Shown here piece by piece: positions 49,070-63,070 of a stretch of 64,000 nucleotides of DNA. The stretch comes from Pseudomonadota bacterium (GTDB lineage Bacteria > Pseudomonadota > Gammaproteobacteria > QQUJ01). The stretch's first letter is position 1, and each line of letters starts with the position of its first letter. The position numbers and the translations under genes are program-made. The notes under the pieces were generated by a model. That model saw only the letters and a list, made by a program, of their open reading frames with translations, did no database searches and was not told the DNA's origin. The stretch is from contig QQUJ01000025.1 of NCBI GenBank assembly GCA_008501635.1, positions 32,196-96,195 of the forward strand, given 5' to 3'.

Positions 49070-50185
49070 TCATCGAAGGCCCGCCGACCATAGCGCCGGG
49101 CACACGGTCTTCGAGTGAAAAGCCGCCTCTTCGGGATCAACCGGGAGCTTGATTTTAAAGGTGGTCCCTCTACCCGACTCGCTCTCTATATCAAGCAACC
49201 CCTTGTGCTTGGTAACTAGAACCTATCTCAATATCCCGCGCGAGCTGTGCCGGTCGCTCGTGGTTTCAGCGCCAGGCGCGGCGAGCGTGGTTGGGTCATT
49301 CCCAATGAGCGAGCCGCAACACCGCGCTGGAGCCACGAGCGGCCGGCCCTTCGGGCCCACCCAGCGCCCTCTGGGGCTCAACACAGCTCACGGGGGATAT
49401 TGAGATAGGCTCTATGTTGTACACCACATTGAGGCCCAAACCCGTTCCTTACCCAGATCCGGGAAATAGTCTTCGGCTTCATAGGCACCATCCAGGATCG
49501 CGGACCTGCGATACTTGGTGCCGTAGTGACGTTTTCTCACCGCATCAGACGCGCAATCAACGATCAGATCGGCCATTAGGGGACGCTCTGATCCGTAGAA
49601 GGCTCGCCATTGTTCAGACTTGCCGACCATCTGCTCCGCGCTATAGCCGGTTAACACCGCGCAGGCATGGTTCCAATGGGTGATCCTGTGCTGACGATCG
49701 ATGACCAGCGTAGCGATAGGCACCCCCTCGAGCGTTTCACGCAGATATTGATCGCTTGCGATCAGCGTTTGCCGCGCCCTGGCACCCTCGGTGACATCGG
49801 TAAGCGCAATAAGAATGCCCCCTTCATCGAGCAACTTCTGAGTCTCCTCCAGCACAGTGCTCTCATCGTGGGCGCGATGGACCCTGCACTGAGAAACGGA
49901 ACCCAGACATTCTGCCTACTCTACCGAGAGCTGGTTGGCATCCCCTTCCCCAAAGTCCCCGCGATCAGTACAAAAACGCGTGACCGCCTCTATGGGTGAG
50001 CCCGGTTCAGCCAGATGCTCAGAGAGTTGCAGCAGCTCGCGAAAGGCGAGATTGGTTGCCACTATGCGATGGTCGGTACTGAGGATGCAGAGTCCTTCCG
50101 CCGCTGATTGAATGCCTCCATGAAAAGCACTGTTCGATCCACCGCCCCTCCCGGTGTTCTCAAACTCTGCAATCCGAGTCGACAA
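49070..50185 (-). pseudogene. Decayed PAS-PAS-histidine kinase gene
   Basis: PAS-like start, in-frame TAG at 49916-49918, second PAS, deletion junction into GTGLGLNVVYNI, MITE, then VTKHKG...ESESGRGTTFKIKLP HATPase tail. Confidence 0.85.
49219..49412. mobile_element. 194-bp MITE with 19-bp TIRs and TA target duplication
   Basis: GAACCTATCTCAATATCCC ... GGGATATTGAGATAGGCTC (18/19 complementary), TA on both flanks, excision restores the kinase reading frame. Confidence 0.9.
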
Positions 50186-50225
50186 CCCGAATGAGTGTTT
50201 CGGCCAAGGCTACGCCAGGGCATAG

Positions 50226-51296
50226 TGTAATCCCCCTATTTGTAATCCCCCATGGAAGTAGACGTAGGCTGCCAATGCCAGCGTTTGAATCGGGGTGATA
50301 CCTCCATTGGCCATGTTGGACCGTTCGTCATTGTAGCGCCATAGCCAGTCAGTGGCAGTTCGTTGTGCATGATCGATGGAATCGAACAGATGCTCGTCCA
50401 ACCACTCATGGCGGACAGTCCGATTGAAGCGTTCAACGTAGGCATTCTGAGTTAGCTTGCTGGGTTGGATAAACAACAAGCGGATATCTCGCTTTGCAGC
50501 CCAACTCTGGAACTTAGCACTGCACGTTTTGCGGCCATAGTCTGAGCGGACGACTTTTGGATTACCGCGCCATTCCATGATCTGATCCAGCGCTCGTACA
50601 ATGCGTGCGGCTGGCAAACCGAAATCAACTTCGATGCCCAGGCTCTCGCGATTATAATCGTCCAGCACATTGAAAGTGCGAAAGGCGGTACCGTTAGCCA
50701 GAGCATCATGCATGAAGTCGATCGACCAAACGGTATTGACCTGCCGAGGCACATCCAGCAGATTGGGTGAATCACGCCTCAGGCGGAGTCTGGACTTGAT
50801 GCGTAAATTTAACTCCAGCCCCCGGTAAATGCGGTAGACATGCTTATGGTTGTACGGCATACCTTTGGCGTTGCGAAGATATAGAAAGCACAGGCCAAAA
50901 CCCCAGCGACGGTTTGTGGTGATCTATCGCAGCGGCTAGTCGGCGATCAATGCATTGTCATCGTTGAGCTTCACCTGGTAGCGGTAGCGGGTCTCGGAAA
51001 TACCAAAAGTCTGGCAGGACAACCGGATAGATACGCCCTTCTCGGTAACTGCTCGTTGCGCCAGCTCTTTGCGTCGAGATGGTTTCACCACTTTTTTAGA
51101 GGGTCTCAGCGACTTCATGTTCGACGCATTCATGCCGCCATACTTGACGCACCACTTGTAAAACGAAGCATTGCTCATGCCGTACTTCCTGCACAGCTCC
51201 GGTACCGGAACGCCGGCATCGGCTTCTTCATTCGTAGAATCTCCTCTTGCAAGAAAATTCTACTCCCCGCGGCAACTATTTTCCGGGGGGATTACA
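50226..51296 (-). mobile_element. Degenerate IS3-family (IS407-group-like) element
   Basis: TGTAATCCCCC...GGGGGATTACA ends, OrfA remnant EADAGVPVPELCRKYG, A6G slippery site 51091-51097, Orf[21 protein letters not shown] with stops and deletions. Confidence 0.88.
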
Positions 51297-51562
51297 CATC
51301 CCCAGGTGCGAAAGATCGCGGTGGCCCTGCTGGGTACCATTGAAGAAGATCTCCGGAAGGCGACGGCGGTATCGAGAACGTCAACTCGTGTACCGACGCT
51401 AGGAAACCATGCGCACCTTGCAAGGTGAGGCGACCCGCTTTTTCGGCTTCTCGTCAGGCCAACTTCAGAATTTTAGTTCCCTTCCTTTTTCCATCCTCGT
51501 GTCTTTCCGTGAGTCTATTTGTGAGAGGTTGGCCAGCAGTACGAATCTAAATACAAAAATAT

Positions 51563-51663
51563 GTGCGTATAGCGCACTTTTAATCAGTGCTATTGACAAG
51601 TCTATGTTATGCGTAATAGGTTCTTTTTAACTATATATAAATATAAGTGTGCGTACTTCGCAC
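51563..51663. promoter_or_regulatory. Pair of 15-bp palindromic operators upstream of the UbiD gene
   Basis: GTGCG-TATAG-CGCAC (51563-51577) and GTGCG-TACTT-CGCAC (51649-51663). Confidence 0.6.
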
Positions 51664-51691
51664 ATACATTAGGGTCGAATGGGAGGAGACG

Positions 51692-53167
51692 ATGCGGGTC
51701 AAAAAACACGGTCAGATCTTGTCAAATCATACGCAGGGGGAAAACGCCGGAGGCGTGTCCTTCAACGATCTTAGGGGCTTCATAGCCCTTTTAGAGGAAG
51801 CAGGTGAACTAAAACGTATTTCAGCGGAAGTAGACTGGGACCTGGAGTTGTCTCATGTCGCTAAGCTTAACGAACAGAATGGAGGGCCAGCGTTGCTGTT
51901 CGAAAATGTAAAGGACTACGAGTGGCCGGTTTTCACCAGCGCTCTCGCCACCTCACAGCGTCTCGCTATCGCACTAGGCCTACCTAAGGAGACCTCCTTT
52001 ACTGAGTTGGCCAAGGCGTGGGTCATCAAGGTCAAAACTCGAATCCCTCCGAAAGAAGTAAAAAGTGGGCCGTGCAAGGAAAACATACTCCGCGGCGACG
52101 AGGTCAATTTGTTCGATTTCCCGGCTCCACGCTATTACGAGGGCGATGGTGGCCGATTCATTGGCACTACCCATTGCATCATCTCACGAAGCCCATCGTC
52201 AGGCTGGGTTAATCTGGGTACCCACCGCATGCAAATTCTCGACGAAAAATCGGCGGGCATCTGGATGATTCCTGGCAAGCATGTCCAGCTCCACCTTAAA
52301 GAGTACGAGGCTCTCGGCAAACCCATGCCTGTAGCAGTTGCCATCGGCGTTGATCCAACTGTCTTCCTAACCGCCAGCGCTCCAATTCCAGCTGAGGAGT
52401 GTGAGTACGACTATATCGGCGGTCTGCGCGGCTCCCCGATTGAGGTGGTACGCGGCGAGACTGTCGACCTCCCGGTCCCGGCCAACGCCGAGGTAATCCT
52501 GGAAGGCGAGGTCGACCCCATCGCGCTGCGCGACGAAGGTCCTTACGGTGAGTACTCCGGAACCTATCAAGCCGCCTACCCCAAGCCATTCATGAAAGTG
52601 AAGTGCATCACTCACCGTAATTCGCCCATACATTGGGGCTGCACTACTGGTAGACCCATCACGGACATTCATCAACTAATGGCCCTCAATCGCACGGCCA
52701 CCTTGTGGAGTGACCTACAGAATATGGGTATCCCCGGTATCGTAGGCGTTTATTGCCCACCGGAAACCGGCGGCTACTTCACAACCGTTGTCTCGGTAAA
52801 ACAGCTCTATGCTGGACACGCCCGCCAAGTAGGTACAGCCGTGCTGTCCTCGCCGTCGGGCGCCTATTCAACGAAGTTTGTGGTGGTCGTCGACGACGAC
52901 GTCGATCCCACCAATCTTAGCGAAGTTTGGTGGGCCATAGGAATGCGCTATCAACCCGACCGCGGTACCGACATCCTGCACCGCGGAATGCCCTCGCACA
53001 TCGACCCATCGCTGCATCATTCGGATAAGCATCACACATCGCGGGTAATAATCGACGCCACTGTCCCCTTCGAGTGGGCGCCCGAGGACAAACCGGAACT
53101 CATTGCCCTGACACCAGATATTGAAGCCAGAGTGCGGAAACGTTGGAACGAGCTCTTTTCCAGTTGA
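51692..53167 (+). CDS. UbiD-family prFMN (de)carboxylase, PpcB-like
   Basis: DLRGFI, GTHRMQ, EGPYGEY, VVVDDDVDP; GGAGGAG RBS; segments resemble the recalled phenylphosphate carboxylase beta subunit. Confidence 0.9.
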   Translation: MRVKKHGQILSNHTQGENAGGVSFNDLRGFIALLEEAGELKRISAEVDWDLELSHVAKLNEQNGGPALLFENVKDYEWPVFTSALATSQRLAIALGLPKETSFTELAKAWVIKVKTRIPPKEVKSGPCKENILRGDEVNLFDFPAPRYYEGDGGRFIGTTHCIISRSPSSGWVNLGTHRMQILDEKSAGIWMIPGKHVQLHLKEYEALGKPMPVAVAIGVDPTVFLTASAPIPAEECEYDYIGGLRGSPIEVVRGETVDLPVPANAEVILEGEVDPIALRDEGPYGEYSGTYQAAYPKPFMKVKCITHRNSPIHWGCTTGRPITDIHQLMALNRTATLWSDLQNMGIPGIVGVYCPPETGGYFTTVVSVKQLYAGHARQVGTAVLSSPSGAYSTKFVVVVDDDVDPTNLSEVWWAIGMRYQPDRGTDILHRGMPSHIDPSLHHSDKHHTSRVIIDATVPFEWAPEDKPELIALTPDIEARVRKRWNELFSS

Positions 53168-53206
53168 CTGCCCATTAAGTCTAATCGCGGGGTTCTGGGA
53201 GGTTTT

Positions 53207-53710
53207 GTGGAACGACTTGAGCAAATTCTGGCACGCATTACCGCTTTAGTGACCCGAGTGGTCGGGTGGATAATGGGTCTGATGGTTGTGCACATCGTCG
53301 TGGATGTGGCGATGAAGTACCTCTTCAATCAGCCAATCTTCGGCACCATCGAGGTCACCGAACACTACTACATGGTACCGGTGGTGTTCGGTGCACTGGT
53401 CTATCTTCAGGCCCTCCGTGGGCACGTCAAGGTGGAAATTTTTACTCTGGGTCTTCCGGTCGGAGGTCGCCGATTCCTCGATGGGATCGCAAGTTTAGCC
53501 ATGGCTGCATTCATGATGCTATTCAGCGCAGTGGGCTACGAAGAGGCCGTTGCCAGTACCGCTCGTCTCGAGTTGGTTGAGGCAGCGACCACAACTATCT
53601 ACATCTGGCCAGCTCGCTGGGTGTTGCCGCTCGCCGGCACTCTGGTGTCGCTAATCGCTCTGCTCCAAAGCGTCCAGCTACTGAGACCTGGAAGCAGGGT
53701 GGGCTGTTAA
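53207..53710 (+). CDS. dctQ: TRAP transporter small permease
   Basis: Four TM helices, GHVKVE motif, upstream of dctM. Confidence 0.85.
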   Translation: MERLEQILARITALVTRVVGWIMGLMVVHIVVDVAMKYLFNQPIFGTIEVTEHYYMVPVVFGALVYLQALRGHVKVEIFTLGLPVGGRRFLDGIASLAMAAFMMLFSAVGYEEAVASTARLELVEAATTTIYIWPARWVLPLAGTLVSLIALLQSVQLLRPGSRVGC

Positions 53711-53782
53711 CGGAGCGCCCCGAGCAATGTCGACGATCGCGGTAGTTACAGAAGTGATTGCGAAGCAGCCCCAGAACCTGCC

Positions 53783-55090
53783 ATGACGCCACTATCTGTG
53801 GGCTTTATCGGTCTAGCCACAATCTTTGTGCTACTAGCCCTGCGGACACCCATAGGCTTGGCGTTGATCGGCGTCTGTTTTATCGGTACTTGGACGATAA
53901 TTGGCCTAACCCCAGCACTGAGCATGCTCCGAATCATGCCCTATGAGTTTGTTGCCCATTGGAGTCTGTCTGCCATTCCCATGTTTTTGCTAATGGGTGC
54001 GATAAGCTACCACGCCGGCCTAGTCAGCACCCTTTACCGAGCAGCTCGACTATGGTTCTGGTTTGTACCTGGCAACTTGGCGATAGCGAGTAATTTCGCC
54101 TGCGCCGGTTTTGCGGCTGCCTCAGGCTCTAGCGTTGCTACAGCAACCGCCATGGGAAGGCTGACCATTCCGGAGATGCTACGCTGTCGCTACGACCCAG
54201 GCTTGGCCACAGGAGTTGTGGCGGCAGCTGGAACCCTCGGCTCACTGATCCCACCCAGCATCTTGCTGATTTTGTATGGCCTGTTCACTGAGCAATCGAT
54301 AAGCGCGCTACTGATGGCTGGAGTGTTGCCCGGCATCCTCACCGCAGTGGTTTACGCGGTGATGATCATTATAAGAGTGAGACATAACCCTTCCCTCGCC
54401 CCACCCATGGAGGGTCACATAAATCGAGCGGAGAAGTGGGAGGCGCTACGCGGCGCATGGCCGATTCCACTACTCATTCTCGGTGTGATAGGAGGCATCT
54501 ACAGCGGTATTTTGACCGCCACTGAAGCGGGAGCCGCTGGCGCATTCCTCGCGTTCCTCATCGGTGTCGCGCGCGGACAAATGACCCGCGCTGTGCTAGA
54601 TGAAAGTGTGCGCGAAGCCTTGGCTAGCACCGCTTTCATCTTTTTCATTGCCATAGGCGCTAGCTTATTGGCCAAATTCATGGTACTCAGCGGTATACCC
54701 ACTTACCTGGGCCAGTTGACCGTCCAGTGGTTTGATGGCCCACTCGGCCTGCTCATGGCGGCCTTCGTTATATTCTTGGTCCTTGGCATGTTCCTCGATC
54801 CGATCGGACTGATGCTGTTGTCAATCCCGGTGCTGCTTCCGATGTTCAAGCAGGCGGGTTTCGACTTAGTCTGGTTCGGCATCTTGGTCATCAAGTTTGT
54901 AGAAATTGGTTTGATAACGCCCCCAGTAGGGCTAAATATATATGCCATTAAGAGTGTCACGGGCGACGCGGTTCCTCTCGAAACTATCTTCAAGGGCGCG
55001 GCATGGTTTCTGCTGTGTGAGTTCATCGTTGTCGCGCTTTTGGTGGTCTTCCCTGACATCGCATTATTGCTACCGCGAATGATGCGATAG
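53783..55090 (+). CDS. dctM: TRAP transporter large permease
   Basis: AIPMFLLMG, SGSSVATA, GTLGSLIPPS, GLITPPVG. Confidence 0.95.
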   Translation: MTPLSVGFIGLATIFVLLALRTPIGLALIGVCFIGTWTIIGLTPALSMLRIMPYEFVAHWSLSAIPMFLLMGAISYHAGLVSTLYRAARLWFWFVPGNLAIASNFACAGFAAASGSSVATATAMGRLTIPEMLRCRYDPGLATGVVAAAGTLGSLIPPSILLILYGLFTEQSISALLMAGVLPGILTAVVYAVMIIIRVRHNPSLAPPMEGHINRAEKWEALRGAWPIPLLILGVIGGIYSGILTATEAGAAGAFLAFLIGVARGQMTRAVLDESVREALASTAFIFFIAIGASLLAKFMVLSGIPTYLGQLTVQWFDGPLGLLMAAFVIFLVLGMFLDPIGLMLLSIPVLLPMFKQAGFDLVWFGILVIKFVEIGLITPPVGLNIYAIKSVTGDAVPLETIFKGAAWFLLCEFIVVALLVVFPDIALLLPRMMR

Positions 55091-55145
55091 GAGAGACGGG
55101 ATGGCCGTAATCACTGCAAGTAAGTAGGCTATGGGAGAAACGACT

Positions 55146-56252
55146 ATGCGAACAAACGTTATTCTGACATCACTAGTACTCGGATTTGCCTTATTGCAGC
55201 CAACATCGCTGATCGCTGCCGAATTGCGATACGCTACCTATATTCCGGCAACCTCAAGTAATAACACCAAGGGTGTCCTGCCATTATTCGAGGCGGTGAA
55301 AGCCAATACCGGTGGTAGGCTGTCGTTCAGTTTTTATCCTGGAGGCCAACTCCTCGACGCCCGCGCAATGCTCTCCGGCATCAAGGACGGTATTGCCGAC
55401 GCAGGTTTTCTGGTAGTGCCTTACTACCCCAGTGAACTCAAGCATGCGGCCGTGATACCGGGTATGGTTACTTTCGGCAGCAATCCGGTCGCCACTGCTG
55501 GCGCAGTACTTGAGACATACCTACTCGACTGTCCCAAGTGTAATGCTGACTTCACCGACAATGGGGTTATTTTTCTGGCTGGCCACGCCACCACACCTTA
55601 CAATATCTTGTGCTCAAAACCTGTCGCTTCGGTCAATGATCTGAAGGGATTAAAAATGCGGACGGCCGGCGGCGGTCTGGCACGTGAAGTCGAAGCGCTC
55701 GGTGGGGTACCGGTCTCTATGACCTCCGGGGAGGTGTACGAAGGACTACAGCGCGGTCAAATCGATTGCGTAATCGCACCCAAGGCATGGTTGCGCCAAT
55801 ATAGCCTTGCTGAGGTTGTCAAGTTCATCTACGACGTACCACTGGGCAGCATCGGCGGTCTCGGCCTGATGACTATGAATATCAACAAGTGGAAGGGACT
55901 AGATGACGCCGATCGTACTATGATACTCAAGGAGTTACCTGGAATGGTCGCACGTGTGGTGCTTGACGGATACGTTGCTGACGACAAAATGGGGATCGAT
56001 GCTGCTGAAAAGGCGGGGATTGAGATCGTAGCCGCCCCACAGGAGCTACACGACAAACTAGCCATCTTCCGTCAAACCGAATTGGCAGAGGTTGAGCGCA
56101 GCGCAACCGAACGCGGAGTCGAGAATGCGCGGGAAATTACTGGTGCCTACCTCGACAACCTAAAAAAATGGAACAGTCTGGCCGAGGATATCGGCACCAA
56201 TAGTGACAAGTACCGCGAGGTGCTTTGGCGAGAGATCTACAGTAAACTTTGA
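55146..56252 (+). CDS. dctP: TRAP substrate-binding protein
   Basis: Signal peptide, FYPGGQL, DLKGLKMR, EVYEGLQRG; alternative start at 55131. Confidence 0.9.
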   Translation: MRTNVILTSLVLGFALLQPTSLIAAELRYATYIPATSSNNTKGVLPLFEAVKANTGGRLSFSFYPGGQLLDARAMLSGIKDGIADAGFLVVPYYPSELKHAAVIPGMVTFGSNPVATAGAVLETYLLDCPKCNADFTDNGVIFLAGHATTPYNILCSKPVASVNDLKGLKMRTAGGGLAREVEALGGVPVSMTSGEVYEGLQRGQIDCVIAPKAWLRQYSLAEVVKFIYDVPLGSIGGLGLMTMNINKWKGLDDADRTMILKELPGMVARVVLDGYVADDKMGIDAAEKAGIEIVAAPQELHDKLAIFRQTELAEVERSATERGVENAREITGAYLDNLKKWNSLAEDIGTNSDKYREVLWREIYSKL

Positions 56253-57084
56253 GTGTCCGGTCGTATACGAGCCGCCCGGCACTCGGGCGGCTCGCACCGG
56301 TGAGAAGCGCATTCCATGCTACACTGACGCTGAGTATAGATACAAAAAAGGACGATGGGGCGACCTAACAACACCGACCAGACCTAGTCAATTTTTAACT
56401 GGATAGTTTTACGCACGTCACAAGACAAAAATCTTCCACACTACCCGGACAAAAACTCGGCGTGACCCTGCAGGCAGTGAGTAACCTCCGATTAACCGTG
56501 CAGGCAGGGCCTGTCAACTATTTATTCGTACAAAGTCCACGCTTAGTTTGCCTCATTATGTATCAACACGCGGGGAGCGGTTGCTCTCCGTAGCAATCAT
56601 CTTCGCAGCATGTATGTCATATACGATTTGTCATATCGATAGCCACGGTCCTCCCAGATAGAGCGATGATTACTTGCACCTTCAGCGAACAAAGACGCCA
56701 ATTTTAAAGTCGGCATTTTGATTAAGTTCTCTCCTACCATTCCCTTCGCTTTGCTCAGCTCAAAGCGATATCCTTACCCGGAAGCAGAACATTCTCTCAA
56801 TCACAATTCAACGCTTTCTGTGGCCAATTAGGTGTGATGGTACTGCCGTATGCGGTTCGATCTCGATGTCGGCTATTGTGCAGATACGCTTGAAGTATTT
56901 CTCGTAGCTCGCTGCTCTTTGCACCCTGTCACTCCAATTGGGGAAAGCGCCACCGCATTCTTATGTGAACGTGGATTTCAAGAGTACCAACCGAACCTAA
57001 AAACCCATTACTGACACTAGGAGATTGACAGCGAGATTAGTGTCGCTGCGCATTTATTTGACCGGGTGAAACGGTGAATCCAGA

Positions 57085-57675
57085 TCAACCGTCGCCATAG
57101 CGCACCGCGTATTCGACCCGCAACGCTGCCAATGTGGTGGCCGCCTCTGCGCTGAAGTCAGCCCCTGTCCAAGCTCGGTGAAGCCCTTGACGGTAGTGTT
57201 TGGCATTGTGCCAATAGGTCAGCGCATTCGCCTTGTTATCGACGAAGTTGTTGCGGGTTCTCTTGACCACGGCGGGTGTGCCTGCGACGATCGAGTTGTC
57301 GGGTATCACAGTACCCTCGCGGACGATCGAACCGGGCGCGATAATGCAGTTGTCCCCCACGCGTGCATTGTCCATGATCACCGCATTGATACCGACTAGA
57401 CAGTTATTGCCAATCGTACAACCGTGCAATATGACATGATGGGTGATCGAGCAATAGTCCCCAATCACCGTGTCACCCTCCCAGCATGTGTGGATCATCA
57501 CGAAGTCCTGTATATTAGAGAAGCAACCAATGCGCACCGCATTCACCTCGGCTCGGACCACGCTATAAGGCCAGAATGACACCCCCTCTCCGACGGTCAC
57601 GTCACCGTAAATCTGCGTAGTCTGATGAATATATGCATTGTCGTGGATCATCACCTTCGGTCCATAATTAGTCAT
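57085..57675 (-). CDS. Gamma-carbonic-anhydrase-family hexapeptide protein (PaaY/CaiE-like)
   Basis: IYGDVTVG, SNIQDFVMIH, THHVILHGCTIG left-handed beta-helix. Confidence 0.9.
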   Translation of the reverse strand: MTNYGPKVMIHDNAYIHQTTQIYGDVTVGEGVSFWPYSVVRAEVNAVRIGCFSNIQDFVMIHTCWEGDTVIGDYCSITHHVILHGCTIGNNCLVGINAVIMDNARVGDNCIIAPGSIVREGTVIPDNSIVAGTPAVVKRTRNNFVDNKANALTYWHNAKHYRQGLHRAWTGADFSAEAATTLAALRVEYAVRYGDG

Positions 57676-57829
57676 TCGGGACTCCTCGTCCAGTATATTG
57701 CCCCCGTAGGCACACCGCTTGTGCAGCTGTTTCCTGCACCTGCACTGGCAGGGCTATTCAGTTTCCCTCTATTCTTGATGGTGCAACCTCTTCCGTTGTG
57801 CACCTCGCATGAACTCCACCAGATTTACT

Positions 57830-58741
57830 TTACCCAGGACTACGACTAGTTGGCCGGGCAACCAACCACGAGGCAGTCACCAAGAGCACTAATCCGACGG
57901 AGTGGTAGCGCTCAAAGACCTCTCCAAGCAGTATGATCGCCATGAGAACACCGAAACTCAGGATCAGATAGGAGATGATCCCAGCGCGGTTTGCACCTAA
58001 GAGTTCGACGACACGATTGTACGAAAGGTGGGCGATTATCGACGAGAATAAGGCGAGAAACAGAATAGCTACGACGGTGTCGCCGGTAAACGGGAATGCC
58101 TCGATTGTCAATGTTTCCCAAATATATAATGGCAATAGCTGCAACAATCCGAAGATTACCGCAAAAGCCATAAAGCTTGCGGGATGAATGGACGGGCGTT
58201 TGGGAAGCAGGACGGTGTAGAGGGCCCAAGTTACGGTCGCTGCGAAAACCCACAAATCACCGGAGTTGAATATAAACTCCGATATTCGGAATAAATCACC
58301 GCGCAGAATTATAACCACAGTGCCTAGTAATCCACAGATCAAACCAATCAGAATGGTGTTGCGTACACTGACTTGAAACAATAAAAAAGATAGCAGTACG
58401 ATGATTGCGGGACGGGACGAGTTAATCAACAGTGCGTTAACGGCGGTGGTCCGCTCCAGTCCGAGATAAATGAATGTATTGAATCCGCTGATCGCGAGGG
58501 CAGCTAATAAGAACATCCAACGCCATTGACTGCGCACCACAGGCCAATCCTCACGCAAATGTGGCCAAGCTAGCGCCAGTAGTATTGGCACCGTCGGTAC
58601 CCAGCGCCAGAAGTTGAGACCGATAGGAGGAACTAGGTCGTGTATGCCACGTCCGACGATGATATTGCTCGCCCACACAAGGGCGGCAATCACCATCAAC
58701 ACATACCCCTGGTCGTAGATCCAGCGCTTCATCCTGGTCAC
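57830..58741 (-). CDS. EamA/DMT-family exporter
   Basis: Ten hydrophobic segments, VWASNIIVGR, GDLWV, LGANRAG. Confidence 0.9.
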   Translation of the reverse strand: MTRMKRWIYDQGYVLMVIAALVWASNIIVGRGIHDLVPPIGLNFWRWVPTVPILLALAWPHLREDWPVVRSQWRWMFLLAALAISGFNTFIYLGLERTTAVNALLINSSRPAIIVLLSFLLFQVSVRNTILIGLICGLLGTVVIILRGDLFRISEFIFNSGDLWVFAATVTWALYTVLLPKRPSIHPASFMAFAVIFGLLQLLPLYIWETLTIEAFPFTGDTVVAILFLALFSSIIAHLSYNRVVELLGANRAGIISYLILSFGVLMAIILLGEVFERYHSVGLVLLVTASWLVARPTSRSPG

Positions 58742-58870
58742 ACAAAGATCCTCTGAGGCACATACGCGTTCATTCTATGATTGCAAAATAGTGTGCGTAT
58801 TGGACAACTTAAACACTCATACGATGTCACCGAGCACGCTGCAACTGAAAGATCTACCGTTACAAGTTCT

Positions 58871-60331
58871 TTATAGCCTCACGCAGATATTCTGAAGCTC
58901 GGTGTAAAATTCTAGAGAGTGGACCCCCCCTTCGCGGCCAATACCGGAGTGTTTACTTCCACCAAATGGTGTACGTAAATCACGCAACATCCAACTGTTC
59001 ACCCAGCAAACTCCAACATCCAACCGCTGCGCGACACGGTGCGTACGGCTAGCATTTTCACTCCATAGTGCCGCACCTAGGCCATAGCGTGTGTCGTTGG
59101 CCAGTGCGATCACCTCTTCCTCACTATCAAAGGGACGTACGTGACAACACGGGCCGAAGATTTCCTCGCGCACAATGACAGAGTCATCCGAGAGGCCCGT
59201 CCAGATAGTAGGCTGCACCCATGCGCCACCTGCTAACTCACCAGGCATTTCTGGTACGCCGCCTCCCGTTATTACAGTAGCGCCTTGTTCAATTGCTCGC
59301 TTGTAGTACACCAATACTTTGTCGCGATGGTTCTGACTAATCAATGGGCCAAGGGTTGTTCCAGGGTGATTCCACGCGCCAAGCACCAAGTGTTCTGCGC
59401 CGGTCTTCAGCCGGACCACAAATTCGTCAAAGATCGCTCGCTCTACGTAAAGGCGTTCGGTGCTAAGGCAGATTTGACCGCAGTTATCGAACACCGAACG
59501 CAGTGTGCCCGCGACGGCCTTGTTCATATCACAGTCGGCAAAAACGATGCCGGGGTTCTTACCTCCTAACTCGAAACTGATATCGCGCACGCCGTTCGCT
59601 GCAGCACGCATGATAGTCTCTCCCGTGCTCGTTTCACCGGTAAAGGTAATCGCATCCACATCGGGATGCTCCGTAAGGAAGGTACCAGCTGAGTTGGGCC
59701 CAAAACCGTGCACCACGTTGTACACGCCCGGCGGTACGCCTGCCGTGTTCATTACCTCGCCTAGCAACGCGGCGGTTGTGGGTGTTTCCTCGGAGGGTTT
59801 GACCACCACTGAATTTCCACAGGCCAATGCCGGGGCGACCTTCCAAGTCATCAGTAGCAACGGCATATTCCAAGGGCTAATTACACCAATCACACCCTTG
59901 GGTTTGCGCACAGTGTAATTAAGCGCACCTGCACTATCTGTAGTGTCAAGCATAAAGCTCTCGGCGGCAAAACCCTTTAGAGCTTCGGCGAAGAAACTGA
60001 AATTAGCTGCACCGCGGGGAATATCAATTTGACTAGCTACTTGCTTCGGCTTACCAGTGTCCCCGCATTCGGCGTCGAGGAACTCATCAAAACGTGCATT
60101 GATACCATCAGCGATACGGTGCAAGATCGCCGTACGCTCGTCTAGCGAAAGACGGCTCCAAGGACCTCGCAACGCGGCGCGTGCCGCAGAAACCGCAGCG
60201 TCGATCTCTTCGTGACCTCCCTCGTGGGTCTCACCGATCTTTACTCCAGTCGCCGGGTCGCGGTTGGCGAAGCGCCGGTCGCTGACCGAACCGACGTGTT
60301 TGCCGTTGATGAAATGTTTGACTTCTCGCAT
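58871..60331 (-). CDS. dmpC: 2-hydroxymuconic semialdehyde dehydrogenase-type ALDH
   Basis: MREVKHFING, IDIPRGAANF, FELGGKN, GQICLSTERLY, EGGVHSLEFYTE closely follow recalled DmpC/XylG; start inferred. Confidence 0.85.
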   Translation of the reverse strand: MREVKHFINGKHVGSVSDRRFANRDPATGVKIGETHEGGHEEIDAAVSAARAALRGPWSRLSLDERTAILHRIADGINARFDEFLDAECGDTGKPKQVASQIDIPRGAANFSFFAEALKGFAAESFMLDTTDSAGALNYTVRKPKGVIGVISPWNMPLLLMTWKVAPALACGNSVVVKPSEETPTTAALLGEVMNTAGVPPGVYNVVHGFGPNSAGTFLTEHPDVDAITFTGETSTGETIMRAAANGVRDISFELGGKNPGIVFADCDMNKAVAGTLRSVFDNCGQICLSTERLYVERAIFDEFVVRLKTGAEHLVLGAWNHPGTTLGPLISQNHRDKVLVYYKRAIEQGATVITGGGVPEMPGELAGGAWVQPTIWTGLSDDSVIVREEIFGPCCHVRPFDSEEEVIALANDTRYGLGAALWSENASRTHRVAQRLDVGVCWVNSWMLRDLRTPFGGSKHSGIGREGGVHSLEFYTELQNICVRL

Positions 60332-60642
60332 GTCATTCTCCATCCTCTCGAATCTTCTGGAAGTCGCGAGTTGAAGTGCCATTGTCCCACATGCTCGCAG
60401 CCCCCATCTTGCGCCAAACTGACACCAGCACTCTCTCTTAATCAATATCAAAGTTGGCCAGTGAAAACGATCACTTCCCAATTCTATTGCTCTCGACCCC
60501 TCGGCAAATTCGTCACGCACCCTTTGTAGCTCGCTGCGATCCAGTATTGAACCGGTCTCGGGCACCCACAGACAATATCTGAACCCTAGAATCAACTGCT
60601 CCGATTGAGTCTTTACATCTGACATTCAGGGCCGGAAAAAAT

Positions 60643-62157
60643 CTACGTCATCTTCGTGAGTTGGCTCTTCCAAATTTTGCCGGTGGGACCGACGGGCAAT
60701 GCTGCCACTAACACCACTTTATTCGGCCGCTTGTATGGTGAGAGGAGAGGTGTGACGTGTTCGCCAATATCAGCATCGCTCATCTTCCATCCAGGCAAGG
60801 GTTGAACGAAGGCGATGATCTCCTCGTCACTGCCCCTCACCGGACGACCAATAACGGCGCATTGGGCCACGCCTGGATGGCTGGCGATGGCAGTTTCAAC
60901 CTCGCCAGGATAGACATTGAATCCGGACCGAATAATTATCTCCTTCGTCCGTCCGACAATGGCATAGTTACCACACGGAAGCCTAATGGCCAGATCGCCC
61001 GTGACAAACCATCCATCGGGTCGAAAAACGCTAGCAGTGGCTTCGGGGTTACGATAGTACCCCATCATGAGCGATGGTCCTCGGACCCACAGTTCCCCGA
61101 CTTCGCCGTCAGTAACGTCACGGTTCTTAGCAACAATCTTAATTTCAATGCCTCCCTGGGGAATCCCCACGCTTTCCGATGCAGCGTTTGTACCCAGCTC
61201 TGTGCGAAGTATCGGTGTGCATTCGGTCATCGCGAAACCGTTGCAAAGAGGCATACCAAACAACTGTTCGACCCTCGCTTTCAAGCTGGGGTCGAGGGGG
61301 GCTCCACCTGTAATCAGATTGCGTAAACGATGCCCCGTCAGGTTACGGTCTCGCTGCTGCAGATAATCCAAGAGGCGTGTGAACAATGTTGGCACACCCA
61401 TCAACACAGTTATTTCTCCCCGCTTAAGTGCGCCCTCCAAATCTTCTAAATCAAGCCGCGGCACCAGCCGTGTAGTCGCTCCAGCCCACACGCTGGTCAT
61501 GATGTACATTGCCACCCCCATGATGTGGGAGAGTGGTGCCAGACCGTACAACCGGTCCTCCGGACCGATTCTCCGAGCAGTCGACGTACTCGACCCCATG
61601 TTGAGCAAAGCACGGTGACTAAGCATCACACCCTTAGGTTGCCCGGTGGTTCCAGAGGTAAACAGCAGCAACCCCACCTGCCGGTCATTTTCCGGATGGA
61701 CTCGTTCAGGTACCGCCGCCGCGTCTGTGGCTCCGAAGGCTACTTTACCGGTGGGAAGGTCTAGAATCTCGGTATCCGTAGCGGCGGTATGGTTCAACGC
61801 CGCGTGTGAATTTTCAATGATGTAGGCAATCAAGCGGGCCCCAAGGGACTGTTTCATCGCCGAGATCTCACACTCGGAAACTCGTGCGTTGACTATCGCT
61901 GGCCACGCGTCAATACGTTGTGCAGCAAACATCAGCACTACGGTACTGATGCTATTTTCAGCCACAATCATAATCCTATCACCCGGCCGCACCCCACGAT
62001 CGACGAGAGTATCGACCGACGCGGATATGGCTGCCGACAGTTCACTGTAGCTCACTCGATCGCTACCGACTTCCTCAAAGGCCGTCTGTTCGGGTGCCTC
62101 ACGTGCCCAATGCAAAACTGGTTCATACGCGCGCGCAGGCAGGTCTGAAATCGCCAC
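60643..62157 (-). CDS. Acyl-CoA synthetase (candidate hydroxycinnamoyl-CoA ligase)
   Basis: FTSGTTGQPKG, GFAMTE, FVTGD, PVGPTGKIWK; directly downstream of the HCHL gene. Confidence 0.88.
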   Translation of the reverse strand: MAISDLPARAYEPVLHWAREAPEQTAFEEVGSDRVSYSELSAAISASVDTLVDRGVRPGDRIMIVAENSISTVVLMFAAQRIDAWPAIVNARVSECEISAMKQSLGARLIAYIIENSHAALNHTAATDTEILDLPTGKVAFGATDAAAVPERVHPENDRQVGLLLFTSGTTGQPKGVMLSHRALLNMGSSTSTARRIGPEDRLYGLAPLSHIMGVAMYIMTSVWAGATTRLVPRLDLEDLEGALKRGEITVLMGVPTLFTRLLDYLQQRDRNLTGHRLRNLITGGAPLDPSLKARVEQLFGMPLCNGFAMTECTPILRTELGTNAASESVGIPQGGIEIKIVAKNRDVTDGEVGELWVRGPSLMMGYYRNPEATASVFRPDGWFVTGDLAIRLPCGNYAIVGRTKEIIIRSGFNVYPGEVETAIASHPGVAQCAVIGRPVRGSDEEIIAFVQPLPGWKMSDADIGEHVTPLLSPYKRPNKVVLVAALPVGPTGKIWKSQLTKMT

Positions 62158-62172
62158 CGCTGTATCTGCCCG

Positions 62173-63027
62173 TCACGTTTCCCGGCGGTAAGCTTGCAGC
62201 CCAGGCTTATATGATTTCTCGTCGAGGAACTGTCTCATACCCTTTTCACGACCACGCTCCGGATCGAGTGCAATGGTTTGGTCGAGCTTGGCGCGCAGGT
62301 ATTCAGACGATTGCTCCCACGACAGGCTCTTCGACATCTTGATGGCGGTTTTTGTCGCCCGCACCACCATCGGATTTTTCTCCAAGAGACTCTTTGCCAC
62401 CTCGATAGTTCTGTCCTTAAGGCGACCTTTAGGAACAGCCTCGTTAACCAACCGCATATCCACAGCCTTTCGGCCGTCGAAATTCTCACCGGTCATGGCG
62501 TAGTAAAGGGCGTCGCGCTGGCTCATGACCTCGGTCAGTACTTTAGAGACGATTCCCCCGGGGATGATGCCCCAGTTCACCTCAGACAGCCCGAAAACGG
62601 CATCCTCGGCTGCAATAGCGAGATCGCAAGCGACCAGCGGAGTGAATGCACCGCCGAAACACCAGCCGTTGACCATAGCAATGGTCGGCTTCGGATAGTC
62701 TACAAGGCGGCCCCATTGCCAAGCCGCATTAGCGCGATAGACTTGCGCTTTTTCCATCGGGCTCATCTTATCTACGGCACGGAAGTAGTCTTGGAGATCC
62801 ATACCTGCAGACCACGAATCGCCGACGCCGGTCAATACCAATACGCCGCAGGATTCGTCTAGTTCCAACGCATCCAACGTGGCGAGCATCTCGAACGCCA
62901 ACTCAGCACTCATCGCATTGAGTTTCGCCGGACGATTGATCGCTACCCAAGCTATTCCGTCTGCAATGTCAACAACTACGTCCTTACCCCACGGTTTACC
63001 TTCATGTACAGTGTTCGAGTTACTCAT
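62173..63027 (-). CDS. ech: p-hydroxycinnamoyl-CoA hydratase/lyase (HCHL)
   Basis: SAGMDLQDYFR, KPTIAMVNGWCFGG, FGLSEVNWGI, QFLDEKSYKPGLQAY follow recalled Pseudomonas HCHL. Confidence 0.92.
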   Translation of the reverse strand: MSNSNTVHEGKPWGKDVVVDIADGIAWVAINRPAKLNAMSAELAFEMLATLDALELDESCGVLVLTGVGDSWSAGMDLQDYFRAVDKMSPMEKAQVYRANAAWQWGRLVDYPKPTIAMVNGWCFGGAFTPLVACDLAIAAEDAVFGLSEVNWGIIPGGIVSKVLTEVMSQRDALYYAMTGENFDGRKAVDMRLVNEAVPKGRLKDRTIEVAKSLLEKNPMVVRATKTAIKMSKSLSWEQSSEYLRAKLDQTIALDPERGREKGMRQFLDEKSYKPGLQAYRRET

Positions 63028-63070
63028 CAAATGTTCCCCTTACTGAATAGACTTGATTTGACGTAATCCC

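What the first reader, a model, noticed from the sequence alone, without database searches (positions are those of the whole stretch)
51692..56252. Stand-alone PpcB-like UbiD enzyme with its own TRAP importer and no partner subunits
Seen: segments such as HRNSPIHWGCTTGRPITDIHQLMALNRTATLWSDL closely parallel my recollection of Thauera phenylphosphate carboxylase beta. Catalytic Arg and Glu motifs (GTHRMQ, EGPYGE) are present. No ppcA/C/D, phenylphosphate synthase or ubiX is in the window. A C-terminal HHSDKHH patch is unusual. Inference: a single-subunit enzyme of unknown substrate; the TRAP binding protein should reveal that substrate.
Basis: partly seen in the sequence, partly recalled or inferred. 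Interest (0 to 1): 0.62.

Follow-up and report, generated by a model that had tools for sequence, protein, structure and literature searches.

The report
PpcB-like decarboxylase with TRAP importer
This is an intact four-gene operon that joins an uncharacterised sister type of the phenol-pathway enzyme PpcB to an acid importer, and it is not really alone: a PpcA-like and PpcC-like pair under the same control sites lies about 35 kb away in the same mobile island.

Summary
Window 51692-56252 encodes an intact UbiD-family enzyme followed by DctQ, DctM and DctP, and every quoted motif is present.

- **Family placement.** The enzyme only just reaches NCBI's PpcB model (471.5 bits against a cut-off of 468.95). 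It is 48% identical to the genome's real PpcB.
- **Phenol cluster elsewhere.** A complete phenol cluster (ppsAB, ppcBDAC and the only ubiX) lies on another contig.
- **Phylogeny.** The enzyme belongs to a fully supported 25-member sister clade of true PpcB. That clade has its own active-site signature: His instead of Tyr before the catalytic Arg, and Tyr instead of Arg at position 362. In none of eight contexts checked is it next to phenylphosphate synthase genes. It repeatedly sits beside TRAP or TAXI importers and CoA ligases.
- **Partners.** "No partners" is only true of the window. The operon's promoter carries two PcaR-type IclR boxes in the same layout as the promoter of a second operon (PpcA-like UbiD, PpcC-like subunit, TAXI importer, PaaK-like CoA ligase). 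That operon is in the same IS-riddled island, and two contigs join across one IS copy.

Best reading: one IclR-controlled regulon for uptake and prFMN-dependent decarboxylation of an aromatic (di)carboxylate that feeds the benzoyl-CoA pathway. The substrate is unknown.

The parts
50210..50860 (-). Truncated IS transposase (integrase core, rve/rve_3). It marks the upstream edge of the lower-GC island.
   Evidence: Pfam rve 6e-17 and rve_3 5e-19. GC falls from about 0.60 to 0.52-0.55 from 50 kb onward. The same remnant appears in independent Logan contigs L024 and L025.
51563..51577 (+). Operator-like box 1, GTGCGTATAGCGCAC (inverted repeat GTGCG-N5-CGCAC), 15 nt upstream of the -35-like TTGACA.
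   Evidence: Sequence. At two mismatches or fewer the genome has 14 hits. The only one-mismatch hit is the box upstream of the PpcA-like UbiD on C17, GTGCGTATAGCGAAC. The box is kept upstream of the 93% orthologue L013 and of C17-type UbiDs in L031 and L033. It matches the published PcaR operator GTTCGATAATCGCAC at 10 of 15 positions (PMC12455658).
51593..51598 (+). -35-like hexamer TTGACA within CTATTGACA, shared with the C17 promoter (CTATTGACG).
   Evidence: read directly from the sequence. The consensus scan did not call a full sigma-70 promoter here, so the -10 element is unassigned.
51648..51664 (+). Operator-like box 2, TGTGCGTACTTCGCACA, 86 bp after box 1 and 28 bp before the start codon.
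   Evidence: The C17 counterpart is TGTACGGAATACGCACA, 89-90 bp after its box 1. L031 has a second box 76 nt after its first and L013 one 87 nt after.
51692..53167 (+). UbiD-family prFMN (de)carboxylase, 491 aa, in the PpcB-sister 'clade A'. Catalytic R179, E282 and E287. Clade signature H178, S289, Q293, C317, T319, Y362.
   Evidence: Pfam and NCBIfam. PDB sequence hits PhdA 7pda at 3e-86 and ShVdcC 7ae4 at 2e-75. Tree. Signature positions. AF2 pLDDT 89.3 and Foldseek TM 0.84-0.88 to UbiD, VdcC and HudA. dN/dS 0.058.
53207..53710 (+). TRAP small membrane subunit DctQ.
   Evidence: Pfam PF04290 at 1e-16. 39-nt gap after ubiD. 38% identical to the DctQ of the Rhodobacterales locus L028.
53783..55090 (+). 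TRAP large membrane subunit DctM.
   Evidence: Pfam PF06808 at 2e-83; TIGR00786 at 286 bits, above its cut-off of 268. 62% identical to L028 DctM, but only 30-31% to the DctM next to clade-A relatives in L014 and L012.
55131..56252 (+). TRAP periplasmic solute-binding protein DctP. It has a signal peptide, and the database copy starts at 55146.
   Evidence: Pfam PF03480 at 4e-29 and NF037995 at 83.5 bits against a cut-off of 50. The selectivity Arg in LKMRTAG aligns with the Arg of solved TRAP binding proteins (role of this Arg from PMC4646407, abstract seen). The subfamily is rare: 69 hits at E<=1e-20, the next relatives being 85% and then 42-48% identical, in Rhodobacterales.
56269..56293 (+). 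GC-rich hairpin GAGCCGCCCG-gcact-CGGGCGGCTC, 17 nt after the dctP stop codon. Probable end of the operon.
   Evidence: Read. It has no T-run, so the terminator scan did not list it.

Best explanation
The locus is a four-gene operon, ubiD'-dctQ-dctM-dctP.

**The enzyme.** It is an intact prenylated-FMN (prFMN) dependent UbiD-family (de)carboxylase. It belongs to a distinct, uncharacterised sister subfamily of phenylphosphate carboxylase beta (PpcB). It most likely removes (reversibly) a ring carboxyl group from an aromatic carboxylic acid, probably a hydroxy- or dicarboxy-substituted one. It does not act on phenylphosphate.

**Regulation.** The operon is transcribed from a promoter with two PcaR/PobR-type IclR boxes. 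The same box-promoter-box layout drives a second operon about 35 kb away in the same IS-riddled island. That operon holds a PpcA-like UbiD, a PpcC-like small subunit, a TAXI-TRAP importer and a PaaK-like aryl-CoA ligase. It sits next to the genome's only PcaR/PobR-family regulator.

**Inferred pathway.** Both operons form one regulon: import of the acid or acids, decarboxylation by one or both UbiD enzymes, CoA ligation, then entry into the class-I benzoyl-CoA reductase pathway. The prFMN must come from the single UbiX in the phenol cluster, because the island's own ubiX has been deleted.

**Shown:** gene content, family placement, clade signature, shared operator architecture, physical linkage of the two loci, purifying selection.

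**Inferred:** direction of the reaction, aromatic nature of the substrate, control by the IclR regulator, and whether the enzyme acts alone or as the beta-like part of an alpha'-beta'-gamma' complex.
For: **UbiD membership.** Three Pfam domains are present. R179, E282 and G283-P284 are invariant and N174 is kept across 30 relatives. The AF2 model has pLDDT 89.3 and TM 0.84-0.88 to E. coli UbiD, ShVdcC and HudA.

**Sister of PpcB, not PpcB.**
- In the 122-row tree, a 25-row clade containing the window enzyme has 100% SH-aLRT support. It sits beside a 98%-supported clade holding the genome's own PpcB and the pps-linked PpcBs. Both lie inside a 51-row clade with 100% support.
- H178 occurs in 25 of 25 clade members. 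Tyr occupies that position in 94 of 95 PpcB-type, 120 of 120 C17-type and 116 of 128 broad representatives.
- Nine discriminating positions were found, including Y362 where PpcB has Arg.

**Context.** None of the eight clade-A neighbourhoods has pps genes. Five have an AMP-forming CoA ligase next to the enzyme or within a few kb (L012's was seen only as a tblastn match), and three have a TRAP or TAXI importer beside it, with a fused TRAP permease further off in two more. The two 54-55% relatives examined sit with ppsA and ppsB.

**Shared promoter.**. The regulator scores 292.5 bits on TIGR02431 (PcaR/PcaU/PobR), cut-off 284.75. The PcaR operator sequence comes from PMC12455658.

**PpcC-like subunit.** TIGR02725 E 2e-6, BLASTP against the genome's own PpcC 1e-4, PF09662 18.5 bits. 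The orthologue in L031 carries a weak Phenyl_P_gamma hit, and P0457 is a fusion of that domain with a UbiD.

**Physical linkage.** The two halves of a PNPOx pseudogene lie at the end of C2 and the start of C17. They flank an IS copy with a TCC(C)TTAA duplication. Relative L033 is collinear across the join.

**Downstream pathway and cofactor.** BcrB scores 849 bits on C4. There is a single UbiX, on C3.

**Functional constraint.** dN/dS is 0.058.
Against:
- The TRAP genes are not orthologous to those beside the enzyme's relatives. Their closest relatives lie in a Rhodobacterales cluster with GntR regulators, an acyl-CoA dehydrogenase and CoA-transferases but no UbiD. The importer's substrate need not be the enzyme's substrate, nor aromatic.
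- The aromatic-acid ligands of the nearest solved TRAP binding proteins (4n6d, 4pgn, 4nap, 4p56, 5izz) are my recollection. I could not verify them, and identity is only about 25-30%.
- Operator function is inferred from sequence alone. A single 14-of-15 match has a chance expectation of about 0.3 per genome (my own estimate, not a tool result). The argument rests on position, pairing and conservation across loci.
- C17-type cassettes occur widely without a clade-A UbiD, and clade-A enzymes occur without a C17-type partner. A fixed alpha'-beta' complex is therefore not required.
- UbiD enzymes are reversible, so carboxylation cannot be excluded.
Confidence: 0.6

Rival explanations
1. Obligate beta-like subunit of a second, kinase-less and delta-less phenylphosphate-carboxylase-type core enzyme. 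On this reading the window protein (beta') assembles with the C17 PpcA-like (alpha') and PpcC-like (gamma') proteins, as PpcA, PpcB and PpcC do. The complex decarboxylates, or exchanges CO2 on, a 4-hydroxybenzoate-like acid.
For: The genome holds exactly one extra paralogue of each of PpcA, PpcB and PpcC. The alpha'/gamma' operon and the beta' operon share the box-promoter-box layout. They lie in one island. The alpha-beta-gamma core of phenylphosphate carboxylase catalysing CO2 exchange is established knowledge (Schuehle and Fuchs 2004, recalled from memory).
Against: C17-type UbiD-gamma-ligase cassettes at 70-97% identity occur without any PpcB-like gene nearby. Clade-A enzymes in Thermodesulfobacteriota are paired with UbiD paralogues of other clades, or with none. 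No interaction data exist.
Confidence: 0.2
2. Spare or alternative PpcB that plugs into the C3 phenylphosphate carboxylase for phenol, cresol or catechol carboxylation. This is how automated annotation would read it.
For: It scores 471.5 bits on TIGR02724, just over the cut-off. It is 48% identical to the genome's PpcB. Relatives are named 'phenylphosphate carboxylase subunit beta' in public records.
Against: It lies outside the true-PpcB clade. It differs at nine positions that are conserved in PpcB and lie next to catalytic motifs, including Y178H and R362Y. It is never linked to pps or ppcACD in eight contexts. It is co-transcribed with a carboxylate importer, and it has a separate IclR-type operator. 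The real PpcB scores 831 bits.
Confidence: 0.05
3. Accessory of the adjacent hydroxycinnamate-cleavage genes. On this reading the TRAP system imports coumarate, ferulate or caffeate. The UbiD enzyme then decarboxylates either the hydroxycinnamate or its product (4-hydroxybenzoate, vanillate or protocatechuate).
For: Genes 0.8-7 kb downstream on the opposite strand encode a p-hydroxycinnamoyl-CoA hydratase/lyase (NF006588, 411 bits, cut-off 276), a CoA ligase and an aldehyde dehydrogenase. TRAP uptake of lignin-derived aromatics is known (TarPQM, cited in PMC5812351).
Against: The two gene sets are convergent. The divergent promoter of the HCHL/PrpD and mutase operons carries GntR-like TGGT-N3-ACCA palindromes and no IclR-type box. 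None of the enzyme's relatives sits beside an HCHL gene. Making phenol from 4-hydroxybenzoate would be futile in an organism that carboxylates phenol. VdcC-model membership fails (339 bits against a cut-off of 650).
Confidence: 0.1
4. Biosynthetic-direction carboxylase. On this reading the enzyme fixes CO2 onto a neutral aromatic or phenolic compound, as proposed for benzene and naphthalene carboxylases. The TRAP genes are then a chance operon partner brought in by the mosaic assembly of the island.
For: UbiD enzymes are reversible. In relatives a CoA ligase lies directly upstream, which fits 'carboxylate, then activate'. The operon is visibly mosaic: the enzyme's nearest relatives at 62-73% identity are in Thermodesulfobacteriota or unnamed metagenomes, and the TRAP genes' in Rhodobacterales.
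Against: Three further clade-A loci independently carry TRAP or TAXI carboxylate importers next to the enzyme. No ATP-dependent activating enzyme (Pps-like) is present. The PcaR/PobR family senses organic acids.
Confidence: 0.05

Closest known systems
Phenylphosphate carboxylase beta subunit PpcB (Thauera/Aromatoleum type; TIGR02724), including the single-PpcB form of strict anaerobes linked to ppsAB
   Same: UbiD fold and catalytic Arg-Glu-Glu. It is the nearest family by HMM (471.5 bits) and by tree: sister clades inside one 100%-supported group. Identity is 48% to the genome's own PpcB and 53-57% to pps-linked PpcBs.
   Different: It lies outside the PpcB clade. It has H178 for Tyr, Y362 for Arg, and S289, Q293, C317 and T319. 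It has no pps, ppcA, ppcC or ppcD neighbours in any of eight contexts. It is co-transcribed with a carboxylate importer and has a PcaR-type operator.
Phenazine-1-carboxylate decarboxylase PhdA (PDB 7pda) and vanillate/4-hydroxybenzoate decarboxylase ShVdcCD (PDB 7ae4)
   Same: These are the closest solved structures by sequence (E 3e-86 and 2e-75). Both are non-oxidative prFMN decarboxylases of aromatic acids. VdcC works with a small partner subunit, as the C17 enzyme probably does.
   Different: Identity is only about 33-35%. They fall in separate clades in the tree. The score is below the VdcC model cut-off (339 against 650). No VdcB or VdcD genes lie in the operon.
Anaerobic phthalate and isophthalate modules: importer (TAXI-TRAP for o-phthalate), CoA ligase or transferase, UbiD-type aryl-CoA decarboxylase (PCD, IPCD), UbiX
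   Same: The logic is the same: import an aromatic dicarboxylate, activate it with CoA, and decarboxylate it with a UbiD enzyme to benzoyl-CoA. A PaaK-like ligase like the isophthalate ligase and a TAXI importer are present in the linked C17 operon.
   Different: The enzyme is only distantly related to phthaloyl-CoA decarboxylase (E 7e-17). No sequence comparison with the isophthaloyl-CoA decarboxylase or its ligase was possible here. The substrate is untested.
PcaR/PobR/PcaU-controlled aromatic-acid operons (IclR family)
   Same: A regulator in C17 scores above the TIGR02431 cut-off. The boxes GTGCG-N5-CGCAC share 10 of 15 positions with the PcaR operator GTTCGATAATCGCAC and overlap the promoter region.
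   Different: The target genes are anaerobic-type UbiD enzymes and TRAP importers rather than beta-ketoadipate pathway genes. Binding and effector are untested.

Membership tests
UbiD family of prFMN-dependent (de)carboxylases | UbiD_N, UbiD and UbiD_C domain architecture and fold | tested here: met
   Pfam E 7.5e-25, 4.2e-70 and 6.9e-32. AF2 pLDDT 89.3. Foldseek TM 0.84-0.88 to 5m1d, 7ae4 and 7abn.
UbiD family of prFMN-dependent (de)carboxylases | Catalytic Arg and two Glu (R173, E277, E282 in A. niger Fdc1, numbering recalled) and the metal-binding Asn of N-x-G-x-x-R | tested here: met
   N174, G176, R179, E282, G283, P284 and G286 are invariant and E287 nearly invariant in a 30-sequence alignment. 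The motifs NLGTHRMQ and EGPYGEYSG are present.
UbiD family of prFMN-dependent (de)carboxylases | A UbiX flavin prenyltransferase available to make prFMN | tested here: met
   There is one UbiX in the genome, at C3:53125-53727 (NF004685, 249.8 bits). The island's own copy, present in relative L033, is deleted here.
UbiD family of prFMN-dependent (de)carboxylases | Measured (de)carboxylase activity with bound prFMN | not testable with these tools
   This needs expression with UbiX and an assay.
Phenylphosphate carboxylase beta subunit (PpcB, TIGR02724) | Score above the equivalog cut-off | tested here: inconclusive
   471.5 bits against a cut-off of 468.95. The genome's true PpcB scores 831, and clade-A relative L014 scores 472.5.
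Phenylphosphate carboxylase beta subunit (PpcB, TIGR02724) | Placement inside the clade of PpcBs that are linked to pps/ppc genes | tested here: not met
   It falls in a sister clade (25 rows, 100% SH-aLRT) beside the PpcB clade (23 rows, 98%).
Phenylphosphate carboxylase beta subunit (PpcB, TIGR02724) | Genomic linkage with phenylphosphate synthase (ppsAB) and/or ppcA, ppcC, ppcD | tested here: not met
   None in the window or on contig C2. None in eight clade-A contexts: window, L012, L013 with L015, L014, L016, L017, L018 and P0023. The two 54-55% relatives examined, L021 and L022, do have ppsAB.
Phenylphosphate carboxylase beta subunit (PpcB, TIGR02724) | Residues conserved in PpcB next to the catalytic motifs (Y178, T289, S293, T317, V319, R362 in window numbering) | tested here: not met
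   All six are replaced, by H, S, Q, C, T and Y, in at least 24 of 25 clade-A sequences.
Non-oxidative hydroxyarylic acid decarboxylase VdcC/BsdC (NF041204) | Score above the cut-off, and vdcB/vdcD neighbours | tested here: not met
   339 bits against a cut-off of 650. The operon has no VdcB or VdcD gene. It lies in a separate part of the tree.
Phthaloyl-CoA decarboxylase (PCD) | Close sequence relationship to the solved PCD structures (8pmk, 8oz5) | tested here: not met
   E is only 7e-17 and 2e-16, far below PhdA, VdcC and UbiD.
DctP-type TRAP transporter | All three components (Q, M and P) encoded together | tested here: met
   PF04290, PF06808 and PF03480 in consecutive genes with gaps of 39-72 nt. 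TIGR00786 scores 286 against a cut-off of 268.
DctP-type TRAP transporter | Conserved carboxylate-binding Arg in the binding protein | tested here: met
   The R in LKMRTAG aligns with the Arg of 4n6d and 4pgn. Its role comes from PMC4646407, whose abstract was seen.
PcaR/PobR-type IclR regulon | A family regulator in the genome, plus operator-like inverted repeats at the promoter | tested here: met
   TIGR02431 scores 292.5 against a cut-off of 284.75 for C17:10411-11163. There are two boxes at each of two promoters, conserved in L013, L031 and L033. Each window box matches the PcaR operator at 10 of 15 positions.
PcaR/PobR-type IclR regulon | Demonstrated binding and effector response | not testable with these tools
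   This needs EMSA or footprinting and reporter assays.

The most novel reading that the evidence does not exclude
The window enzyme and the linked PpcA-like/PpcC-like pair are the decarboxylating core of an oxygen-independent route for an aromatic dicarboxylate. Candidates are terephthalate, isophthalate or a hydroxy-phthalate. Two binding-protein-dependent importers bring the acid in, and a PaaK-like ligase and the UbiD enzymes convert it to benzoyl-CoA. According to a 2026 review (PMC13040137), the anaerobic terephthalate pathway has not been defined genetically, so this island would be a candidate for it. The His178/Tyr362 signature would then mark a new substrate class within the PpcB lineage.
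Probability: 0.12. Interest if true: 0.8.

Novelty: new variant of a known kind. Interest (0 to 1): 0.45.

Why it matters
**Annotation.** Public pipelines name this whole clade "phenylphosphate carboxylase subunit beta" or "4-hydroxy-3-polyprenylbenzoate decarboxylase". The evidence here says it is neither. It is a separate, uncharacterised branch of the PpcB lineage with altered residues beside the catalytic Arg and Glu, and it is repeatedly coupled to carboxylate importers and CoA ligases. Using these names as markers for anaerobic phenol degradation in metagenomes would therefore overcount.

**Biocatalysis.** UbiD enzymes are sought as reversible CO2-fixing and decarboxylating catalysts. 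A branch with a new active-site signature is a reasonable target for substrate discovery.

**Regulation.** The shared IclR operator gives a concrete, testable regulon that links two UbiD paralogues, two importers and a CoA ligase in a denitrifier that has a benzoyl-CoA pathway.

**Caveat.** If the substrate proved to be a phthalate isomer, this would bear on anaerobic plastic-monomer degradation. That is speculative.

Tried and rejected
- **Co-occurrence in related genomes.** This led nowhere. The organism's order holds only three genomes, the same-genus genome lacks both this gene and PpcB, and only the window's own genome of 400 scored class-level genomes has a match. That shows the genes are accessory but says nothing about partnership.
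- **Orthology of neighbours.** The CoA ligases, second UbiDs, MmgE/PrpD proteins and TRAP genes next to clade-A relatives are not orthologous to anything in this island. A conserved vertical gene cluster is therefore rejected.
- **The HHSDKHH patch as a functional motif.** Rejected as a family feature. It is present only in the window protein and its 91% relative, inside a variable loop. The AF2 model gives pLDDT of about 81 for the two ten-residue blocks that span the loop.
- **Riboswitch or other RNA in the 400-nt leader.** There were no Rfam hits at gathering threshold in 50000-58000.
- **Ligands of the nearest solved TRAP binding proteins.** I could not confirm them from the library, so they remain a recollection.
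- **A permissive genome scan for the box with one mismatch.** With the central five bases left free it gave 313 hits and was uninformative. Only the full 15-mer and 19-mer scans were useful.
- **PCD-like aryl-CoA decarboxylase membership.** Considered and rejected on sequence distance.
- **Structure model.** It was used only for fold confirmation.

Full report
**1. What is at the coordinates.**
Window 51692-56252 holds four same-strand ORFs separated by 39-72 nt.
- A 491-aa UbiD-family protein (ATG 51692, preceded by GGGAGGAG).
- DctQ (53207-53710), DctM (53783-55090) and DctP (55131/55146-56252).

Pfam confirms all four. A GC-rich hairpin follows the dctP stop codon. No Rfam family matches the region. 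Against its 91%-identical orthologue the enzyme gene has dN/dS 0.058, so it is a working gene.

**2. Which UbiD enzyme is it.**
The best NCBIfam model is phenylphosphate carboxylase beta (TIGR02724), but only just: 471.5 bits against a cut-off of 468.95. The VdcC, menaquinone, UbiD and PpcA models are all far below their cut-offs.

The genome has six UbiD paralogues. One contig (C3) carries a textbook phenol cluster:
- ppsA and ppsB;
- ppcB (831 bits), ppcD, ppcA (968 bits) and an 89-aa ppcC;
- a third UbiD, a CoA ligase, and the genome's only ubiX.

The window enzyme is 48% identical to that true PpcB, 37% to a PpcA-like paralogue on contig C17, and 33% to PpcA.

The closest solved structures by sequence are phenazine-1-carboxylate decarboxylase PhdA (7pda, 3e-86; identified through PMC10850782) and the Sedimentibacter vanillate decarboxylase VdcC (7ae4). 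Phthaloyl-CoA decarboxylase is remote at 7e-17. An AlphaFold model (pLDDT 89.3) superposes on E. coli UbiD, VdcC and HudA with TM 0.84-0.88.

**3. Phylogeny and signature.**
I built a 122-sequence tree (IQ-TREE, SH-aLRT support) from these rows:
- the close homologues found;
- 50%-identity representatives from an exhaustive HMMER search;
- the genome's paralogues;
- three second UbiDs from relatives' clusters;
- PhdA and VdcC.

The window enzyme sits in a 25-member clade with 100% support. I call it clade A; its members are at least 62% identical to the window protein. Clade A lies beside a 98%-supported clade that holds both the genome's own PpcB and the PpcBs of strict anaerobes. The two sit together inside a 51-member group with 100% support. 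PhdA, PpcA with the C17 enzyme, VdcC and canonical UbiD are all elsewhere.

Clade A has a sharp signature.
- The residue before the catalytic Arg is His in 25 of 25 members. It is Tyr in 94 of 95 PpcB-type, 120 of 120 C17-type and 116 of 128 broad representatives.
- Nine positions separate clade A from PpcB. Most lie next to the catalytic motifs: H178/Y, S289/T, Q293/S, C317/T, T319/V and Y362/R.
- The catalytic Arg and both Glu are kept.
- The HHSDKHH patch is confined to the window protein and its 91% relative, in a variable loop.

**4. Context of relatives.**
Clade-A genes occur in Thermodesulfobacteriota and Desulfatiglans MAGs and other metagenome contigs. They lie beside AMP-forming CoA ligases, a second UbiD of other clades, GntR or IclR regulators, DctPQM or TAXI importers, and variable MmgE/PrpD, old-yellow-enzyme, amidohydrolase-2, acyl-CoA dehydrogenase or HGD-D genes. 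They never lie beside phenylphosphate synthase.

The two 54-55% relatives whose neighbourhoods were examined, L021 and L022, sit next to ppsA and ppsB, with UbiX also nearby in L022.

The neighbours of clade-A relatives are not orthologous to the window's neighbours. What recurs is the kind of partner, a carboxylate importer and a CoA ligase, rather than a fixed cluster.

The window's DctQMP is closest to a Rhodobacterales locus (DctM 62% and DctP 45% identical). That locus has GntR regulators, an acyl-CoA dehydrogenase and CoA-transferases but no UbiD. The operon is therefore a mosaic.

**5. The promoter and a second locus.**
Upstream of the start codon lie the following elements:
- an inverted repeat GTGCGTATAGCGCAC (51563-77);
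- 15 nt later, TTGACA;
- a second repeat TGTGCGTACTTCGCACA (51648-64).

The only other copy of box 1 in the genome within one mismatch lies upstream of the PpcA-like UbiD on contig C17. It has the same spacing to CTATTGACG and a second box 89-90 bp downstream. The same layout precedes C17-type UbiD genes in two other assemblies (L031, 81% identical; L033, 97%). It also precedes the 93% orthologue of the window enzyme (L013). It is absent upstream of the clade-A genes of the Thermodesulfobacteriota relatives.

The C17 gene is divergent from a regulator that passes the PcaR/PcaU/PobR model (292.5 bits against 284.75). The published PcaR operator GTTCGATAATCGCAC (PMC12455658) shares the GT-CG...CGCAC half-sites with the boxes here.

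The C17 operon continues with these genes:
- a small ORF that weakly but specifically matches the PpcC (gamma) family (TIGR02725 2e-6; BLASTP against the genome's own PpcC 1e-4; PF09662 18.5 bits);
- a TAXI binding protein and a fused TRAP permease;
- a PaaK-like CoA ligase.

Homologous cassettes are widespread, and one is a gamma-UbiD fusion.

**6. The two loci are one island.**
- The window's contig C2 ends, and C17 begins, in multi-copy IS ends.
- Just inside each end lie the two halves of a decayed PNPOx-like gene. They are in matching orientation and meet at the same codons, with a duplicated TCC(C)TTAA.
- In the close relative L033 the same sequences are contiguous and uninterrupted. There they also include a UbiX-like gene, which has been deleted here.

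The PpcA-like/PpcC-like operon therefore lies roughly 35 kb from the window enzyme. The estimate is 24 kb to the end of C2, plus one IS, plus 9-10 kb. The island has lower GC (0.54 against 0.596 for the genome) and is bounded upstream by an IS remnant. It is absent from the sister species.

**7. Interpretation.**
The enzyme is a bona fide prFMN (de)carboxylase from an uncharacterised PpcB-sister subfamily. Four points argue that it is not a phenylphosphate carboxylase subunit: the changed residues beside the catalytic centre, the absence of pps/ppc partners in every clade-A context, the recurrent coupling to carboxylate importers, and the PcaR-type operator.

The points that make me favour one IclR-controlled regulon are these:
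- the shared operator;
- the physical linkage to an operon with an alpha-like UbiD, a gamma-like subunit, an importer and a ligase;
- a class-I benzoyl-CoA reductase in the genome.

The proposed regulon takes up an aromatic (di)carboxylate, decarboxylates it and passes it to the benzoyl-CoA pathway. prFMN would come from the phenol cluster's UbiX. I cannot decide whether the window enzyme acts alone (my preference, because each type occurs elsewhere without the other) or as the beta-like member of an alpha'-beta'-gamma' complex.

The adjacent hydroxycinnamoyl-CoA hydratase/lyase cluster is convergent and appears to have GntR-type rather than IclR-type sites. I therefore rate a direct functional tie as less likely.

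**8. Limits.**
- There are no expression data.
- No coordinates were available to place H178 and Y362 in the active site.
- I could not retrieve the isophthaloyl-CoA decarboxylase or the terephthalate-induced UbiD sequences for comparison.
- The aromatic ligands of the nearest solved TRAP binding proteins are recalled, not verified.
- Earlier notes from this scan independently describe the CoA ligase, PpcA-like UbiD and small-subunit cassette as widespread and uncharacterised. I treat them as leads only.

Noticed in passing
G000 contig C2:107457-107924 and C17:1-488 (outside the window; L020:13457-13924 and upstream of L011): A PNPOx-like pseudogene is split by a multi-copy IS with a TCC(C)TTAA target duplication, which joins contigs C2 and C17. 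Relative L033 is collinear and uninterrupted. It also has a UbiX-like gene between the PNPOx gene and the 501-aa ORF; an approximately 0.8-kb deletion has removed that gene here.
   Followed up: yes
L020:5609-8993 (= C2:99609-102993; about 3.6 kb past the window end): A complete B12-mutase set sits in the island: a GlmE-like gene (505 aa, TIGR01503 at 331 bits, below its cut-off of 390), a 149-aa GlmS-like gene with a DxHxxG motif (GADAHMIG), and GlmL (545 bits).
   Followed up: partly
window 57085-64000 (- strand), continuing to L020:5315: A convergent catabolic operon holds these genes: a PaaY/gamma-carbonic-anhydrase-like hexapeptide protein; an EamA exporter; an aldehyde dehydrogenase; an AMP-forming CoA ligase; a p-hydroxycinnamoyl-CoA hydratase/lyase (411 bits); PimD- and PimC-like acyl-CoA dehydrogenases; and an MmgE/PrpD protein. 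The aldehyde dehydrogenase ORF is 584 aa with about 100 extra N-terminal residues, and its best model is 2-hydroxymuconic semialdehyde dehydrogenase (835 bits). The divergent promoter region (L020:5316-5608) has TGGT-N3-ACCA-type palindromes that suggest the island's GntR regulator (L020:9093-9842).
   Followed up: partly
L009 (G000 C3:38001-58000): The phenol cluster has the gene order ppsA-ppsB-ppcB-ppcD-ppcA-ppcC-ubiD3, then a riboflavin-kinase-like gene, NUDIX, PNPOx, a CoA ligase, a CBS protein and ubiX. This differs from the Thauera order as I recall it. NUDIX, PNPOx and UbiX are 69-82% identical to the copies that follow the C17-type cassette in L033, so this trio looks like a mobile cofactor-maturation module.
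   Followed up: partly
L013 (WYAX01000025.1, labelled as a Nitrospira defluvii MAG): The 93% orthologue of the window enzyme keeps both operator boxes. It is preceded by two transposase fragments and by a fused TRAP permease, a QRPTase-like gene, LarB- and LarC-like nickel-pincer cofactor genes and a nucleotidyltransferase. The contig may be mis-binned.
   Followed up: partly
L015 (Logan SRR8731049 contig): The 91% orthologue has a different downstream context: a formyl-CoA-transferase-like CoA-transferase (400 bits, below cut-off) and an oxalyl-CoA decarboxylase / 2-hydroxyacyl-CoA lyase-like ThDP enzyme. It has no IclR boxes upstream.
   Followed up: no
G000 C17:1747-2434: The NUDIX gene downstream of the C17 cassette matches its L033 counterpart in two pieces, so it is probably frameshifted. 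Together with the PNPOx pseudogene and the lost UbiX, the cofactor-maturation end of the island appears to be decaying.
   Followed up: no
window 56300-57085: About 800 bp after the operon has no ORF of 80 aa or more and no Rfam match. Its content is unexplained and may be a remnant of a deleted gene.
   Followed up: no
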